A stretch of 61,054 nt of DNA, from NCBI RefSeq assembly GCF_017307565.1, contig NZ_JAFKHD010000070.1, positions 1-61,054 of the forward strand. The letters run 5' to 3'. This DNA is from Devosia sp. (lineage in GTDB: Bacteria; Pseudomonadota; Alphaproteobacteria; Rhizobiales; Devosiaceae). The notes beneath the pieces are model-generated. The model ran no database searches, was not told where the DNA came from, and saw only the letters and a program-made list of their open reading frames with translations. The translations under genes and the position numbers were made by a program. This document shows, in pieces, positions 1 to 30,147 of this stretch. How positions within the stretch are numbered: position 1 is the first letter of the stretch; each line of letters begins with the position of its first letter.

Positions 1-132
1 GGCGAGCTTGTCGGGGTCGAGCCCGGCATGCTGCATGAAAGCAAGCAGTTCATCGGGGTTTTCGGCAAGGTAACCGAGGCAAGCCTCGGCGACTTCGGCA
101 AGGTCCAGCGATGACGGTTTCGCGAGCGGCAA
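1..132 (-). CDS. DUF3572-family protein (partial, runs off window edge)
   Basis: Manual translation from TTG at 132 (GAGG upstream): MPLAKPSSLDLAEVAEACLGYLAENPDELLAFMQHAGLDPDKLA; divergent from divK, as is typical for DUF3572. Confidence 0.6.
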   Translation of the reverse strand, partial: MPLAKPSSLDLAEVAEACLGYLAENPDELLAFMQHAGLDPDKLA

Positions 133-255
133 GTCTTGGCCTCATTTGAGGTTTTGTAACAGATTGAATGATACCCCAAGGGGACGGGGAAGCGAAGGGC
201 CGCAGTGCTGGGACAGGGGAAACCACCGGTGCCGCAGGCTTTTAAGTGAGGACCA

Positions 256-627
256 ATGTCCAAGACAGTGATGATCGTGGAAGACAACGAGCTCAATATG
301 AAGCTCTTCAACGATCTGCTCGAATCGCGCGGCTATCGGGTCATCCAGACCCGCAACGGTCTGGAGGCGCTGGATTTGGCGCGGGCTCACATGCCCGACC
401 TGATCCTGATGGATATCCAATTGCCCGAAGTGTCGGGGCTCGTGGTCACCAAGTGGCTCAAGGATGACGAACAACTCGCCCATATCCCCGTCATCGCTGT
501 CACCGCTTTCGCGATGAAGGGTGACGAAGAGCGAATTTTGCAAGGCGGCTGCGAAGGTTACATCTCTAAACCTATCTCCGTGTCTCACTTTCTGGAAACC
601 ATTGCCCATTACATTGGGCCTGCCTGA
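256..627 (+). CDS. divK: Single-domain cell-cycle response regulator DivK
   Basis: [18 protein letters not shown]...[14 protein letters not shown]...[11 protein letters not shown]; directly upstream of pleD. Confidence 0.95.
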
Positions 628-713
628 ATAAGCAGGGAGCGGTTGACGCTTCTGTGGGTCTCGACGGCCGGTGCGGCCGCCGGGCCAGTTTGTTTTGACT
701 TGGGGGATATGCC

Positions 714-2084
714 GTGACTGCGCGCGTTCTGATTGTCGACGACATTCCAACGAATGTCCGGTTGCTCGAAGCGCGGCTGTCGGCTGAGTATTTTGACGTG
801 CTCACCGCCAGTTCCGGCCCCGAAGCCCTTGAAATCTGTGACAATAACGAAGTCGACATCATCCTGCTCGATGTGATGATGCCGGTGATGGACGGCTTCG
901 AAGTCTGCCGGCGCCTGAAGTCCAACCCCAGGACGCACCACGTTCCGGTGCTGATGATCACCGCCCTTGACCAGCCTTCGGACCGGGTCAAAGGCCTCGA
1001 AGCCGGCGCCGATGACTTCCTGACCAAGCCCGTCGACGACACCCAGCTCATGGCCCGCGTGAAGAGTCTGGCGCGTTTGAAATCGCTGACCGACGAATTG
1101 CGGGCTCGCGCCCTGACCGGCCAGCAGATCGCTATCGAAGACGCCCTTCGCGCCATGGATACGATCTCGGCCAGTGGTGGCTCGGTGCTGATCATCGACA
1201 ACGACAAGCGCCATGCCGAGCGGGTGCAGGGGTATCTGAGCGAAGAGCACAAGGTCGACATCCTGCTCGACCCGGCCGACGCCGTCTTCCATGTGTCTGG
1301 CGCACAATACGAATTGGTACTGGTGAGCATGTCGCTGGGCGATTTTGACCCGCTGCGCGTGGCCTCCCAGATTCGCACCGTAGAGCAATCCCGCAACCTG
1401 CCGATTATCCTGATGGCCGACGACGGCGACAAGCCGCGCGTGGTGCGGGCGCTTGATCTCGGGGTTAACGATTTCATCAGCCGACCGATCGAGCGGAACG
1501 AATTGAAGGCGCGGGTGCGGACTCAAATCCGCCGTCACCGCTACGCCATGGAACTGCGCCAGAGCGTCAACAACACCATCGCGCTGGCCGTTACGGACGA
1601 TCTGACCGGGCTCTACAATCGCCGCTATTTTGATAGACATCTCAGTGTCTTGCTGGGCAAAGCTCAAGCCCAGGAACGCAATATGGCGGTGATGATCCTC
1701 GATATCGACCACTTCAAATCGGTCAATGACACCTACGGCCACGACGCTGGCGACATGGTGCTTAGAGAGTTTTCGGCGCGGGTGAAGCGCAATATCCGCG
1801 GTGTCGACCTGGCCTGCCGTTTTGGTGGTGAGGAGTTCGTCGTGCTCATGCCCGACACCGATGTTCTCAATGCCGAACTCGTGGCTGAGCGGGTGCGGCA
1901 GGCGATTGCCGAGAAGGCCTTTGACGTGAATTCGTCCCGGCCACTGGTCGTGACCGTGTCGGTGGGCGTGTCGTTCATCGAGAGCCAGGCGGATACGCCC
2001 GAAACCCTCATCAAGCGTGCCGACCTGGCCCTTTACCGGGCCAAGCGCGAGGGCCGGAACCGGGTTATTCTCGACGCAGCTTGA
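714..2084 (+). CDS. pleD: PleD diguanylate cyclase (REC-REC-GGDEF)
   Basis: Two receiver domains, GGEEF active site, RGVD I-site upstream; GTG start; follows divK. Confidence 0.95.
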   Translation: MTARVLIVDDIPTNVRLLEARLSAEYFDVLTASSGPEALEICDNNEVDIILLDVMMPVMDGFEVCRRLKSNPRTHHVPVLMITALDQPSDRVKGLEAGADDFLTKPVDDTQLMARVKSLARLKSLTDELRARALTGQQIAIEDALRAMDTISASGGSVLIIDNDKRHAERVQGYLSEEHKVDILLDPADAVFHVSGAQYELVLVSMSLGDFDPLRVASQIRTVEQSRNLPIILMADDGDKPRVVRALDLGVNDFISRPIERNELKARVRTQIRRHRYAMELRQSVNNTIALAVTDDLTGLYNRRYFDRHLSVLLGKAQAQERNMAVMILDIDHFKSVNDTYGHDAGDMVLREFSARVKRNIRGVDLACRFGGEEFVVLMPDTDVLNAELVAERVRQAIAEKAFDVNSSRPLVVTVSVGVSFIESQADTPETLIKRADLALYRAKREGRNRVILDAA

Positions 2085-2117
2085 TAAAATGCCGCCTATT
2101 AGGGTTATCTGTTATAA

Positions 2118-2132
2118 TTAACAGATGGTTAT
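2118..2132 (+). promoter_or_regulatory. CtrA-like box (TTAA-N7-TTAT)
   Basis: ttaa-cagatgg-ttat, one mismatch to TTAA-N7-TTAA; overlaps the perfect palindrome atctgtta-taat-taacagat in an AT-rich patch. Confidence 0.5.
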
Positions 2133-2134
2133 CG

Positions 2135-2392
2135 CCAGTATTCGACTGGATTTCCTTGAGTTTCGGCGGGCCCATTGTAGGGTGGTCTCCAGAAGGCGAT
2201 GGTCGCAAACGACTGATGCCTCAGAGCTCCCTACGGCTTATCTCAGGTCCGCCGCAACTCCTGAGTCCCGTAGGGCGGTTGGTCCGGACGCGGTGAGAGT
2301 GGCCTCTTCGACGTACCGCTCCGGACCAGCCACTCTCACTCCTGAAATCGTTATGGAAATGCGCCCCGGTGCTGACAGACTGTTAGCATCGG
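2135..2392 (+). ncRNA. Candidate structured non-coding RNA (family unknown)
   Basis: Multiple long stems with G-U pairs on the + strand, a closing stem (2150-2166 with 2342-2360) and alternative pairings; no credible CDS. Confidence 0.5.
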
Positions 2393-2427
2393 CAATAGCC
2401 GTTTCGAGAATTGGTTAGTCCAAATGC

Positions 2428-2460
2428 GAAAAGGCCCCGCACGATTGTGCAGGGCCTTTC
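2428..2460. terminator. Intrinsic terminator (probably bidirectional) downstream of rpmG
   Basis: gaaaaggccc-c-gcac gatt gtgc-a-gggcctttc hairpin flanked by A/T runs. Confidence 0.75.
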
Positions 2461-2484
2461 AAACGCTTAGAAGGTCAGATCAGA

Positions 2485-2652
2485 TTACTTGATCTTGGCT
2501 TCCTTGAATTCGACGTGCTTGCGAGCAACGGGATCGTACTTCTTGAATGCCAGCTTTTCAGTCTGGGTACGGGCGTTCTTCTTGGTCACGTAGAAATAGC
2601 CGGTATCGGCGGTCGACACGAGCTTGATCTTGATGGTGGCGGCTTTTGCCAT
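2485..2652 (-). CDS. rpmG: 50S ribosomal protein L33 (zinc-free form)
   Basis: Manual translation [55 protein letters not shown] (55 aa, below the ORF-track cutoff). Confidence 0.97.
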
Positions 2653-2768
2653 TTTCGTAGTCCTTCAAACGAAAAGGCGCCGCGAGCCAGGGCAGCGCCG
2701 GAATTTGGGCGCAACCTACGGATTTGCGGGAAGTTGTCAAGCATATAGAGCCAGATGGAGACAGAGAG

Positions 2769-3185
2769 ATGACCACACCGACCGAATTGCTGCACCGCCT
2801 GCAGATCAAGGCTGGCACCAAGCTCTGGCTGATCAACGTGCCCCAGGAAATCGCCGAGGAAATCACCGCCGGCGCCGAGGTGGAGCCGGTGCATGGCGAT
2901 TCCTATTATGACGGGGTTTTGGCGTGTTTTGCCGGCCCCGGGGAGGTGGAGGCCATGACGCCGCGAATCCTGGCCGAGTTGCCTCCGGACGGGCTTCTAT
3001 GGGTTGCCTATAGGAAGGGCGAGATCGGCAAGGCCGCCGGCCTGACCCGCGACACCGGCTGGGCGCCGCTGGAGGCGCAGGGGCTGCGCCCGGTGCGGGC
3101 GGTCGCGCTCAATGGGGAATGGTCGGCGCTGCGGTTCCGGCCGAGGGAGAAGGTCAAGGCGCGGGCAGGGTCGCAGTTTGCCTGA
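2769..3185 (+). CDS. Conserved hypothetical protein (DUF3052-like)
   Basis: DGLLWVAYRKG...LTRDTGW...WSALRFRP motif; GGAC/AGAG-rich RBS before ATG. Confidence 0.65.
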   Translation: MTTPTELLHRLQIKAGTKLWLINVPQEIAEEITAGAEVEPVHGDSYYDGVLACFAGPGEVEAMTPRILAELPPDGLLWVAYRKGEIGKAAGLTRDTGWAPLEAQGLRPVRAVALNGEWSALRFRPREKVKARAGSQFA

Positions 3186-3307
3186 GGGCCGGTCGTCGGT
3201 GCGGAGGGGGTAGGGCGGCGCCGTAGTGCCGCTCTCAAAATGCAGTGATATGGGAAAGTGCCGACGACTACGGCACTCTCACTGGAGCGCGGTGACCGAT
3301 CGAAACG

Positions 3308-3703
3308 TCAGTCCCGCTGGCCGGTACCGAATCCATACATGCGCGTGGCCCATTGCAGGCCGACGATGGAGCCCTTGATCGAGGGCAGCATGGCCAGCGG
3401 CAGCACGATGGCCAGCGGGATCATGGAGATCATGTAGGTGATCGGCTGGATATGATAGGTCATGTCCAGGTGCAGCATCAGGAAGATGATGATGTGGCCG
3501 ACAATGGTGATGGCGATATAGGGCGGGAAATCATCGGCACGGTGGTGCTTGAGTTCTTCGCCGCAAACGTCGCACTGGTCGACGACCTTGAGATAGGCGC
3601 GGAACATCTTGCCCTGGCCGCAATGGGGGCACTTGCAAAGAGTGCCGCGCCACATGGCCTGGCCGACGCTGCGCTGGTCGAGAGTGGTGGTGTCCTGATC
3701 CAT
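3308..3703 (-). CDS. DUF983 family membrane protein
   Basis: CKCPHCGQGKMF...CDVCG...HRADDFPPY plus two TM segments; usual neighbour of rnr. Confidence 0.85.
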   Translation of the reverse strand: MDQDTTTLDQRSVGQAMWRGTLCKCPHCGQGKMFRAYLKVVDQCDVCGEELKHHRADDFPPYIAITIVGHIIIFLMLHLDMTYHIQPITYMISMIPLAIVLPLAMLPSIKGSIVGLQWATRMYGFGTGQRD

Positions 3704-3707
3704 CAAA

Positions 3708-5990
3708 CTATCGCTTTCTCCGGCCCTTTGGACCGAAGCTCCTAGATGGTGCCTTTCGAGGGCGGCGGCCAGATGGCGGATTGCCGCGGCTTCCCTCCGA
3801 GAGAAGTTCGAAGCGTAGCGCGCCGGCTACCGGTGCCGCTTCGACCAGGCGGACCGAGACGCGGTCGCCCAGCGTAAACGTCTCGCCGCTGCGCTCCCCG
3901 ATCATCGCCTGCCGCTCTTCGACAAAGCGATAATAGTCCTGACCCAGGGTCGACGCCGGAATGAACCCGTCGGCGCCGGTTTCGATCAGGCGAATGAAGA
4001 GTCCGGAACGGGTAATGCCGGAAATGCGGCCTTCAAAACGCGCGCCGATGCGCTGCGCGAGGAACTGCGCCAGCAGGCGATCCGACGTCTCGCGCTCGGC
4101 CAGCATGGCCCGGCGCTCGGTGGCCGAGATGTGCTGGGCGATGCCCTGGAGCTTGGTCGCTTCCTGCTCGGTGAGACCATCGTCGCCGAGGCCCAAGGCA
4201 CGCACCAGAGCGCGGTGCACGATGAGGTCGGCGTAGCGGCGGATGGGCGAGGTGAAGTGGGCGTAGCGGTCGAGGTTCAGACCGAAATGGCCGTAATTCT
4301 CGGCGGAATATTCGGCCTGCGCCTGGCTGCGCAGCACCATTTCGCTGACCTGTTCCACATTGCCGGCCTTGCGGGCCTGGCCGAGGATGCCATTGAAATC
4401 GGACGCGCGGACGGAATCGGATTTTTTGACCGCGATGTCGAGGCTGCCGAGGAAGTCCCGAAGACTCTGCAGCTTCTCCGAACTCGGCTCGTCATGGACG
4501 CGATAGAGCAGCTCACTCCGCTTTTGTTCCAGCGTTTCGGCGGCGGCGACGTTGGCCGCGATCATCATCTCTTCGATGAGGCGATGGGCTTCGAGGCGCT
4601 CCGGAATGCGGATATCGGCGACCATGCCTTTGTCGTCGAGGATGATTTTCCGCTCGGGTAGGTCGAGGTCGAGCGGGCCGCGTTTGTCGCGGGCCGAGGC
4701 CATGGCGGCATAGGCGTCCCACAGGGGGCGCAGGATGGGCTCGAGCAGAGGGCCCGTCTTGTCGTCGGCATTGCCGTCGATGGCGGCCTGGGCCTGCTGA
4801 TAGCTGAGCTTGGCTGCCGAGCGCATCAGGATGCGATGGAAGCTGTGGCTGATCTTGTGGCCATCGGCATTGAGCACCATGCGCACGGCGAGAGCGGCGC
4901 GCGCCTCGCCTTCCTTCAGCGAGCACAGCTCGTTGGAAATGCGCTCGGGCAGCATGGGCACGACGCGGTCGGGGAAATAGACCGAGTTGCCGCGGAGATA
5001 CGCTTCGCGATCGAGCGAGGTGCCGGGGCGGACATAGGCGGCGACGTCGGCGATGGCCACGGTGACCACATGGCCGCCGGCGTTCTTCGGATCCTCGTCG
5101 GGCGCGGCGTGGACTGCGTCGTCATGATCCTTGGCGTCGGGCGGGTCGATGGTGACGAGCGGCAGGTCGCGCCAGTCTTCGCGGCCTTTGAGCGTCGCTT
5201 CCTTGGCCTCTTCGGCGTCGCGAATGACGCTGGTCGGGAATTTGTAGGGGATTTCGAGATTGTGGATCGCGATCATGGAAACCGCGCCTTCGGAGGCGGG
5301 GTTGCCGATGACGGAGGTCACCCGGGCGCGCGGAATCATCAGGCGGCCGGAAAGCTTTACTTCCACCTCGACGAGATCGCCGTCCTGGGCTTCGCCGAGA
5401 TCGCCGAGCGGAATGCGCATTTCCTTCTGCTTGCGATCGACCGGGATCAGGCGGGCGCCTTCATTGTCCATGCGGACAATGCCGATCTGGCCGCGACGGG
5501 GCTTGTCCAGCACCTTCATCGGCTTGGCGGTATAGTGGGGGATTTCGTCTTCGCCGGCATCGATGCGAGCGAGGATGCGATCGCCCGGAGCCGGGACGAC
5601 GCGCGAATCCTTGGCAAGGAGCACTTCGACGCGCGGCTTCTCACCTTCTTCCGGGTTCCACTGGGCCGGGAAGGCGTGGAGCGCGTCGGGATCGGCGTCG
5701 GACGGAATATCGAGGACGGTCACATGGGGCAGGGCGGCGGTGCGACGCAGCGCCTTGCGGGTGCGTGTGATGATGCCTTCGCCTTCAAGCTCGGCCAGCA
5801 TTGCCTTGAACGGCCGGCGCATATCGCCGCGAATGCCGAAGATTTTTGCGAGGTCGCGCTTGCCCTTGATGTCGGCGTCCTGCTTCAGGGCCTCCAGCAA
5901 TTGTTCGCGCGTGGGCAATTCACCGGCGCGCTGTTGAACGCTGCGCTTCGGGCCCGAGGTGTTTTTTGGTTTTGGTTTTTTGGTGGTCAT
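3708..5990 (-). CDS. rnr: Ribonuclease R
   Basis: TIDPPDAKDHDDA RNB motif, YAHFTSPIRRYADL, C-terminal S1 domain and basic tail. Confidence 0.95.
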   Translation of the reverse strand: MTTKKPKPKNTSGPKRSVQQRAGELPTREQLLEALKQDADIKGKRDLAKIFGIRGDMRRPFKAMLAELEGEGIITRTRKALRRTAALPHVTVLDIPSDADPDALHAFPAQWNPEEGEKPRVEVLLAKDSRVVPAPGDRILARIDAGEDEIPHYTAKPMKVLDKPRRGQIGIVRMDNEGARLIPVDRKQKEMRIPLGDLGEAQDGDLVEVEVKLSGRLMIPRARVTSVIGNPASEGAVSMIAIHNLEIPYKFPTSVIRDAEEAKEATLKGREDWRDLPLVTIDPPDAKDHDDAVHAAPDEDPKNAGGHVVTVAIADVAAYVRPGTSLDREAYLRGNSVYFPDRVVPMLPERISNELCSLKEGEARAALAVRMVLNADGHKISHSFHRILMRSAAKLSYQQAQAAIDGNADDKTGPLLEPILRPLWDAYAAMASARDKRGPLDLDLPERKIILDDKGMVADIRIPERLEAHRLIEEMMIAANVAAAETLEQKRSELLYRVHDEPSSEKLQSLRDFLGSLDIAVKKSDSVRASDFNGILGQARKAGNVEQVSEMVLRSQAQAEYSAENYGHFGLNLDRYAHFTSPIRRYADLIVHRALVRALGLGDDGLTEQEATKLQGIAQHISATERRAMLAERETSDRLLAQFLAQRIGARFEGRISGITRSGLFIRLIETGADGFIPASTLGQDYYRFVEERQAMIGERSGETFTLGDRVSVRLVEAAPVAGALRFELLSEGSRGNPPSGRRPRKAPSRSFGPKGRRKR

Positions 5991-6088
5991 GTTGCCCGAT
6001 ATGTAGGGGATTGCTGGGCTTTTGCCAAATTGGCTCGCCATGCCGGGCAAAGGCCGCTTGAATGGGTGCTTCAACCCAAGGCGATTCC

Positions 6089-30062: not shown

Positions 30063-30147
30063 TGGTGCGGGCGACGGGAATCGAACCCGTACAGCGTTAG
30101 CCGAGGGATTTTAAGTCCCTTGTGTCTACCAGTTTCACCACGCCCGC
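30063..30147 (-). tRNA. tRNA-Leu (anticodon TAA)
   Basis: GCGGGCG...TGGTAGAC, anticodon arm AGGGA-CTTAAAA-TCCCT, long variable arm, GGTTCGATTCC, encoded CCA; 85 nt. Confidence 0.97.

What the first reader, a model, noticed from the sequence alone, without database searches (positions are those of the whole stretch)
2107..2460. Candidate cell-cycle-linked structured RNA between pleD and rpmG with switch-like alternative stems
Seen: almost every base of the intergenic region can pair. Stems: ccagt/actgg hairpin (2135-2149); closing stem atttcc..gtttcgg (2150-2166) with ctgaaat..ggaaat (2342-2360); gtaggg (2177-2182) with ccctac (2229-2234) enclosing ggc.at.ggtcg-caaa-cgact.gat.gcc; a competing ccctacgg (2229-2236) with ccgtaggg (2268-2275) around ctcagg/cctgag; a 12-bp ggttggtccgga (2277-2288) with tccggaccagcc (2320-2331), competing or pseudoknotted with a perfect 11-bp gtgagagtggc (2293-2303) with gccactctcac (2329-2339); and a 12-bp hairpin at 2366-2392. 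The wobble positions read as G-U on the + strand, which favours + strand transcription. A CtrA-like box lies just upstream and a terminator downstream. I do not recognise it as tmRNA, RNase P, SRP, 6S or a c-di-GMP riboswitch. Inference: a CtrA-regulated sRNA, or a structured pleD 3' element/ribozyme.
Basis: partly seen in the sequence, partly recalled or inferred. Interest (0 to 1): 0.75.

Follow-up and report, generated by a model that had tools for sequence, protein, structure and literature searches.

The report
EcpR1 cell-cycle small RNA in Devosia
The structured stretch between pleD and rpmG is a copy of EcpR1, a known bacterial small RNA that likely slows the cell cycle by pairing with the gcrA message; the proposed folding switch is not conserved, though conserved upstream sites hint that the master regulator CtrA may control it.

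Summary
The stems are real, but the RNA is known. Window 2227-2336 (+) matches EcpR1 (Rfam RF02500; 84.8 bits, cut-off 60, full length) at its usual divK-pleD/rpmG locus, single copy, with homologues in 34 of 36 same-genus genomes (genus likely Devosia). Its two stems, SL1 and SL2, covary across 60 homologues. The 2366-2392 hairpin is one of about 36 copies of a genus-limited DNA motif. The gcrA leader site validated in Sinorhizobium meliloti is kept in 22 of 25 family genomes, so antisense repression of gcrA is likely. One lead remains. CtrA-like sites sit upstream in two distant genera, and a published S. meliloti CtrA ChIP peak lies about 111 nt upstream of ecpR1, assigned to no gene. CtrA control of EcpR1 is untested. 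No usable RNA data were found. The scan found EcpR1 before on two other genomes.

The parts
256..627 (+). divK (single-domain response regulator), first gene of the divK-pleD operon
   Evidence: ORF; receiver-domain hits without a curated cut-off met; named from its position and by-eye likeness to the S. meliloti DivK sequence printed
714..2084 (+). pleD diguanylate cyclase
   Evidence: NF007135, 658.6 bits, cut-off 474
2099..2122 (.). conserved AT-rich DNA block (TTA-N3-TTA-N4-TT), a likely regulator site made of CtrA-like half-sites
   Evidence: 22 of 22 genus rows, 25 of 70 other homologues (shuffled mean 0.9), 1 of 3140 gene-upstream windows of this genome; pattern chosen after seeing the data
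2118..2132 (.). CtrA-like box TTAA-N7-TTAT
   Evidence: TTAA-N7-TT at the same place in 20 of 22 genus rows; binding untested
2135..2158 (+). small hairpin plus U-rich tract; possible weak terminator of divK-pleD
   Evidence: flagged by the terminator scan; relatives mostly fold a hairpin here but weakly, z<-1.5 in 7 of 22
   Evidence: pattern in 22 of 25 family loci; looser pattern in 74 of 120 loci against 1.0 in shuffles; not found by the E. coli consensus scan; start not mapped
2190..2227 (+). predicted 5' leader with a hairpin (2195-2220) kept in shape, not sequence; outside the Rfam model
   Evidence: z<-1.5 in 20 of 22 genus rows, against 1 of 22 and 0 of 22 for two neighbouring control stretches
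2227..2336 (+). EcpR1 core (RF02500)
   Evidence: 84.8 bits, E 1.7e-11, model 1-113
2229..2275 (+). SL1; loop UCCGCCGCAACU at 2248-2259, the predicted mRNA-pairing seed
   Evidence: all pairs kept in 21 of 21 relatives; two-sided changes at 9 of 14 pairs across 60 homologues; loop 0.97-0.98 unpaired from the predicted start in 25 of 25
2277..2331 (+). SL2 with the GAGUGGCCUCUUCG loop motif
   Evidence: two-sided changes at 12 of 12 outer pairs; probability 0.998 in the ensemble
   Evidence: probability 0.000 and 9.2 kcal/mol worse; no covariation
   Evidence: 37 profile hits at 36 places against 2 in a shuffled genome; pattern in 14 of 21 same-genus and 0 of 9 other genomes
2430..2459 (-). intrinsic terminator of rpmG, possibly bidirectional
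   Evidence: z -6.12; a similar hairpin follows rpmG in most rows of the genus alignment
2485..2652 (-). rpmG, ribosomal protein L33
   Evidence: NF001860 and TIGR01023 above cut-off

Best explanation
This is the ecpR1 gene: a two-hairpin small RNA, likely transcribed from its own sigma70-type promoter just after pleD, whose exposed GC-rich first loop is predicted to pair with the gcrA mRNA leader and so lower GcrA and slow cell-cycle progression under stress. Shown here: the family match, synteny, single copy, covariation of SL1 and SL2, a conserved promoter-like pattern and a conserved complementary site in the gcrA leader. Inferred from S. meliloti: transcription, trimming of the 5' leader to a core of about 100 nt, induction by stress and ppGpp, Hfq independence and translational repression. 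dnaA is a weaker candidate target here, through a different, genus-conserved leader site. The extra stems are promoter DNA, a possible pleD terminator, a leader hairpin and an unrelated repeat, not a switch.
For: Rfam RF02500 full-length, 84.8 bits against a cut-off of 60. One match in this genome; 34 of 36 same-genus genomes; 104 of 151 order genomes; 0 of 14 control genomes. pleD and/or rpmG beside 55 of 55 loci, both beside 47, as published for S. meliloti (PMC4414408). SL1+SL2 over 60 homologues: 92.0% of cells paired against 83.4% shuffled, 23 of 30 pairs with two-sided changes, 0 of 500 shuffles as high, slid controls at most 54.9%; RNAalifold returns the same two stems unprompted. The gcrA leader holds an 11-nt complement of the loop (G000:C37:17306-17316), rank 93 of 3198 gene starts by duplex energy, aligned with the site about 110 nt before the start in an outgroup, where S. 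meliloti's validated site lies. The full complement, G-U allowed, is kept in 22 of 25 family genomes.
Against: No transcript shown: the four RNA runs laid gave flat, low-depth contigs that could be DNA. The loop differs from S. meliloti at one base, although the paper calls that stretch identical in the species it analysed. No canonical terminator follows SL2. dnaA ranks only 654 of 3198. 92 gene starts pair better than gcrA by raw duplex energy, computed without accessibility on crude gene calls. Conservation of the gcrA site could have another cause, since its flanks are conserved too. The 60-row alignment left out 33 of 93 anchored homologues, six of them strongly divergent.
Confidence: 0.9

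Rival explanations
1. EcpR1 that is also a conformational switch in this lineage: the SL2 loop motif pairs with the 3' tail, or the upstream gtaggg pairs with SL1 in pleD read-through RNA and hides the seed loop.
For: A helix of 7 bp or more between the loop motif and downstream sequence exists in 22 of 23 genus rows. In this genome a fold starting at 2107 breaks SL1 and buries the loop (unpaired 0.09).
Against: Alternative helix: probability above 0.1 in 0 of 92 homologues and at least 4.5 kcal/mol worse in all; 78.5% paired against 78.3% shuffled, 213 of 500 shuffles as high. Its genus-level retention follows from a nearly invariant core. Read-through occlusion in only 2 of 25; gtaggg/ccctac complete in 1 of 21 relatives. 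As a pseudoknot with the full SL2, a 4-nt linker would have to span about 20 bp (geometric inference).
Confidence: 0.05
2. A cis-acting pleD 3' element, c-di-GMP riboswitch or ribozyme.
For: It lies directly after a diguanylate cyclase gene and is highly structured.
Against: No riboswitch or ribozyme family matched at E up to 5 over 1-6000. No downstream gene on the + strand to control; rpmG converges. An own promoter-like pattern is conserved. The S. meliloti homologue is an independent transcript. No covarying pseudoknot.
Confidence: 0.03
3. A mobile-element remnant (MITE or IS) or a small protein gene (97-codon ORF, 2125-2418).
For: A 97-codon frame spans the region; a 21-nt piece of the region is multicopy.
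Against: The core is single-copy and syntenic across the order. A start codon stands at the aligned place in 4 of 22 rows and the long frame survives in 1 of 22, the window itself. The multicopy piece lies outside the core.
Confidence: 0.02

Closest known systems
EcpR1 of Sinorhizobium meliloti (SmelC291 / SmrC10 / Sra33; Rfam RF02500 Atu_C6; PMC4414408)
   Same: Locus between divK-pleD and convergent rpmG; two stem-loops; GC-rich SL1 loop; SL2 loop motif; a sigma70-type promoter pattern with a short 5' leader; complementary site in the gcrA leader at the aligned place; single copy.
   Different: Loop UCCGCCGCAACU instead of UCCGCCGCAUCU, a change found mainly in Devosiaceae; UCUUCG instead of UCCUCG in SL2; predicted leader about 38 nt against 29; no obvious terminator right after SL2; the dnaA complement, if used, lies 35-45 nt before the first ATG and not over the ribosome site. 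Expression and function untested here.
EcpR1 of Methylosinus sporium (PMC12403871)
   Same: Homologue beside rpmG with SL1 and SL2, found outside the Rhizobiaceae.
   Different: Its ends were mapped by dRNA-seq and Term-seq; no target agreed between prediction tools there.
GspR (SmelC775) of S. meliloti (PMC5928217)
   Same: Works alike: a stress-induced trans-sRNA that pairs with a cell-cycle regulator's leader.
   Different: Different family, targets ctrA and cspA5, limited to Sinorhizobium; not matched here.

Membership tests
EcpR1 (RF02500) | Covariance-model score above the gathering cut-off | tested here: met
   84.8 against 60 bits, model 1-113
EcpR1 (RF02500) | Position between divK-pleD and rpmG, sense to pleD | tested here: met
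   47 of 55 homologous loci have both neighbours
EcpR1 (RF02500) | Two stem-loops SL1 and SL2 | tested here: met
   ensemble probabilities 0.99 and 0.998; covariation
EcpR1 (RF02500) | Unpaired GC-rich SL1 loop motif UCCGCCGCAUCU | tested here: met
   11 of 12 bases identical; the one change is shared by 23 of 23 genus rows; loop 0.98 unpaired
EcpR1 (RF02500) | SL2 loop motif UCCUCG | tested here: met
   present as UCUUCG, one change; the published motif is described as less conserved
EcpR1 (RF02500) | Complementary site in the gcrA 5' leader | tested here: met
   11-nt complement, kept in 22 of 25 family genomes; pairing in vivo untested
EcpR1 (RF02500) | Complementary sites at the dnaA ribosome site and start codon | tested here: inconclusive
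   rank 654 of 3198; a different 7-bp complement is conserved in 18 of 20 genus rows
EcpR1 (RF02500) | Own sigma70-type promoter | tested here: inconclusive
   conserved -35/-10-like pattern; start site not mapped; E. coli-consensus scan found none
EcpR1 (RF02500) | Expression as a discrete, stress-induced, processed RNA | tested here: inconclusive
   only assembled contigs of low, flat depth were available
EcpR1 (RF02500) | ppGpp dependence, Hfq independence, repression of targets | not testable with these tools
   shown only in S. meliloti
c-di-GMP riboswitch, ribozyme, tmRNA, RNase P, SRP, 6S | Match to the family's model | tested here: not met
   none among the 3 Rfam matches at E up to 5 over 1-6000; no tmRNA in the window
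CtrA regulon member | CtrA consensus (TAA-N7-TTAAC, PMC3616915) in the promoter region | tested here: inconclusive
   one-mismatch matches in 12 of 22 genus rows (shuffled 2.5) and 29 of 70 others (shuffled 14.1), against 130 of 1280 AT-matched windows; binding and regulation untested in this genus

The most novel reading that the evidence does not exclude
CtrA directly controls ecpR1 across the Hyphomicrobiales. With CtrA sites at the gcrA promoter and EcpR1 pairing with the gcrA leader, this would form a feed-forward loop that ties the sRNA to cell-cycle phase and not only to stress. Support: conserved CtrA-like sites upstream of ecpR1 in two distant genera, an order-wide AT-rich block almost unique to this locus, and an S. 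meliloti CtrA ChIP peak about 111 nt upstream of the ecpR1 start that was assigned to no gene.
Probability: 0.4. Interest if true: 0.45.

Novelty: new member of a known kind. Interest (0 to 1): 0.18.

Why it matters
As found, little: EcpR1 has been characterised since 2015 and Rfam annotates it. The copy extends the family and its gcrA site to Devosia, with a family-specific loop base and a structured leader that the Rfam model omits. The useful by-product is a cheap, testable question for Alphaproteobacterial cell-cycle work: whether CtrA regulates ecpR1. A published ChIP peak and the conservation found here both point that way, and I did not find the link stated in the papers searched.

Tried and rejected
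Switch by gtaggg/ccctac: rejected. The 5' arm overlaps the -10 box; in alignment A1 five rows are shifted by one column there, so the 71% figure depends on the alignment, but the complete helix is in 1 of 21 either way. Alternative 11-bp helix or pseudoknot: rejected. Long closing stem 2150-2166/2342-2360: 43% paired in relatives. The 97-codon ORF: not conserved. MITE or IS: core single-copy. RNA evidence: 24 runs listed, 4 laid; contigs of depth about 4-5 covered pleD, the gap and rpmG alike, one spanning 2146-2799 across both strands' genes, so DNA cannot be excluded and nothing is concluded. A weight matrix of the Devosia upstream block scored only 8 of 70 other homologues at p up to 0.05; the simpler pattern was picked after reading that output. 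ctrA as a target: duplex only -15.9 kcal/mol, in line with the negative S. meliloti result. An independent ChIP replicate was sought in the supplements of PMC4083442: only Caulobacter rows matched. The S. meliloti sequence under the ChIP peak could not be checked, because none of 30 loci from genus g71 carried the published promoter. The gene context of the 21-nt motif was unclear with my crude gene caller (12 of 36 called inside ORFs, probably from over-long starts). A search for Devosia with small RNA and CtrA found 0 papers.

Full report
OBSERVATION. The interval lies between pleD (714-2084, +) and rpmG (2485-2652, -). The 354 nt fold at z -7.60 on + and -6.57 on -. The structure is more than chance, but strand cannot be read from wobbles alone.

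IDENTITY. Rfam places EcpR1 (RF02500, Atu_C6) at 2227-2336 on +, 84.8 bits against a cut-off of 60, full model length; the two other matches at E up to 5 are far below their cut-offs. The model finds one copy in this genome, 34 of 36 same-genus genomes and 50 of 61 overall, 104 of 151 genomes across the order, and 0 of 14 controls. Of 55 loci with long flanks, 53 carry pleD, 49 rpmG, 47 both and none neither. The exact loop variant of this window occurs in 120 fetched loci; the 80 listed are mostly titled Devosia or other Devosiaceae, with some unclassified records and one Roseibium and one Rhodoblastus title. The closest named locus is Devosia riboflavina, so the genus is inferred to be Devosia. 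Robledo et al. 2015 (PMC4414408; I read parts 1-7 of 12, covering introduction, results and discussion, plus passages; figures and supplements not seen) describe EcpR1 at this same locus. It is a sigma70-driven, ppGpp-stimulated, Hfq-independent RNA with a dominant 101-nt processed form, and its SL1 loop pairs with gcrA and dnaA mRNAs.

WHICH STEMS ARE REAL. In 21 same-genus relatives SL1 (168 of 168 and 126 of 126 cells) and the SL2 outer stem (252 of 252) are fully kept. For covariation I aligned 60 of 93 anchored homologues; I left out 18 of 23 genus rows, 9 near-duplicates and 6 strongly divergent rows. SL1+SL2 pair in 92.0% of cells against 83.4% shuffled, 23 of 30 pairs show two-sided changes, and all 12 SL2 outer pairs do. 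RNAalifold returns the same stems. The tool warns that kinship inflates the shuffle test, but the slid controls (at most 54.9%) and the contrast with the rival helix on the same alignment agree. The 7-bp core of the alternative helix pairs in 78.5% against 78.3% shuffled, with no excess covariation. It has probability 0.000 and costs 9.2 kcal/mol here, and exceeds probability 0.1 in 0 of 92 homologues. In its favour, a helix of 7 bp or more is possible in 22 of 23 genus rows, which follows from a nearly invariant core.

The other 'switch' arm, gtaggg (2177-2182), overlaps the TAGGGT of a conserved CTTGAG-N17-TAGG(G/T)T pattern: 22 of 25 family loci, and a looser form in 74 of 120 loci against 1.0 in shuffles. 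I read this as the -35/-10 of ecpR1 with a start near 2190 (inference; the E. coli-consensus scan found nothing). An RNA starting there forms SL1 with an open loop in 25 of 25. A read-through RNA buries the loop in only 2 of 25, this genome being one. The 2195-2220 hairpin is a leader hairpin kept in shape but not sequence (z<-1.5 in 20 of 22; control stretches 1 and 0 of 22). The 2135-2149 hairpin with its U-rich tail may end the divK-pleD transcript, but support is weak (7 of 22). The 2366-2392 hairpin is centred on a 21-nt motif found at 36 places in this genome (2 hits in a shuffled genome; the profile was built from 10 of them) and in 14 of 21 same-genus but 0 of 9 other genomes. It is not part of the conserved RNA.

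TARGETS. The gcrA leader carries an 11-nt complement of the loop and adjoining stem, rank 93 of 3198 crude gene starts. It aligns with the site about 110 nt before the start in an outgroup; S. meliloti's validated site is at -109 to -95. The full complement, G-U allowed, is kept in 22 of 25 family genomes, and three carry one mismatch. Flanking leader sequence is conserved too, so this is consistent with pairing and not proof. dnaA ranks 654. A TGCGG(A/G)CC-type block 35-45 nt before its first ATG is kept in 18 of 20 genus rows and 0 of 9 others (2 of 30 loci dropped at contig starts), a 7-bp complement and a weak candidate.

MECHANISM. Shown: family, locus, two covarying stems, promoter-like pattern, gcrA complement. 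Inferred from S. meliloti: transcription from about 2190, removal of the leader, accumulation in stress and stationary phase, translational repression of gcrA through the SL1 loop, slower cell-cycle progression. No RNA evidence could be had here.

CTRA LEAD. TTAA-N7-TT stands at 2118-2130 and at the same place in 20 of 22 genus rows. The block before it (TTA-N3-TTA-N4-TT) is in 22 of 22 genus rows, 25 of 70 other homologues (shuffled 0.9) and 1 of 3140 gene-upstream windows of this genome; the pattern was chosen, where a matrix test gave only 8 of 70. In a distant genus (g71), 30 of 30 fetched loci, out of 41 hits, have a one-mismatch TTAA-N7-TTAA box over the -35 and a TTTTAACCA invariant in the alignment (reading the latter as a CtrA half-site is recalled). 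Pini et al. 2015 (PMC4433202; passages and S4 Table read whole, supplements 13-16 not searched) list a CtrA ChIP-seq peak at 1,411,567, one of 198, marked opposite to both flanking genes. pleD ends at 1,411,474 and the sRNA starts map at 1,411,680 and 1,411,707 (PMC3616915, passages and supplement rows), with 1,411,678 in a review table (PMC7143759, passages). The peak therefore lies about 111-113 nt upstream of ecpR1. Against regulation: fragments averaged 300 bp; overproducing DivK or PleD did not change ecpR1 promoter reporters, and reporters of different extent behaved alike in stationary phase; CtrA-like matches occur in 10% of AT-matched upstream windows. Searches for ecpR1 with CtrA and ChIP returned only the 2015 paper and the review, and the passages shown do not make the link. 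Searches returned nothing. Subscription papers and bioRxiv supplements are outside these searches.

OTHER PAPERS SEEN. Passages only: PMC12403871, PMC3927594, PMC8244774, PMC5928217. Supplement search only: PMC4083442.

VERDICT. A new member of a known family; the switch, riboswitch and ribozyme readings are not supported. Interest 0.18. The boldest reading still open, a CtrA-EcpR1-gcrA feed-forward loop, I put at 0.4. Two earlier notes of this scan reached the same family call on other genomes; I saw them after my own tests and they are not independent evidence.

Noticed in passing
window 2370-2390; also G000:C64:2929(-), C501:419(-), C111:3388(+) and others: Genus-limited multicopy 21-nt motif with a GTTA(A/G) direct repeat at 11-bp period and a fixed spacer; it reads like a CtrA-type TAA-N7-YTAAC site on the other strand. 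36 places here, up to 31 per genome in relatives, none in 9 genomes of other genera. A response-regulator site or a mini-repeat; several copies lie about 50-65 nt from a divergent start codon.
   Followed up: partly
window 2099-2122: AT-rich block nearly invariant in the genus and recognisable upstream of ecpR1 across the order, yet almost absent before other genes of this genome; the binding protein is unknown.
   Followed up: partly
L056:1278-1297 (G000:C37, gcrA promoter): A TTAG-N7-TTAAC CtrA-like box upstream of gcrA, seen in most genus rows of the alignment, as reported for S. meliloti gcrA.
   Followed up: no
L058, about 166 nt before the DnaA domain match (G000:C369): Conserved TGCGG(A/G)CC block in an otherwise variable dnaA leader, 18 of 20 genus rows; complementary to the start of the EcpR1 loop.
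   Followed up: partly
window 2195-2220: 5' leader hairpin kept in shape across the genus and three family members (z<-1 in 24 of 25) but outside the Rfam model; may guide processing.
   Followed up: partly
G000:C125:3514-4041 (L057): A second, weaker GcrA-family gene (69.1 bits).
   Followed up: no
G124:C34:753-864 and G124:C241:5778-5883: The only genome of 151 with two EcpR1 matches.
   Followed up: no
L088, L092: In these AT-rich genomes ecpR1 seems to follow the end of divK directly, without pleD (read by eye).
   Followed up: no
window 2769-3185 (+): 138-residue ORF divergent from rpmG with no NCBIfam match.
   Followed up: no
window 30063-30147 (-): tRNA-Leu(TAA), the only tRNA in the window.
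   Followed up: no
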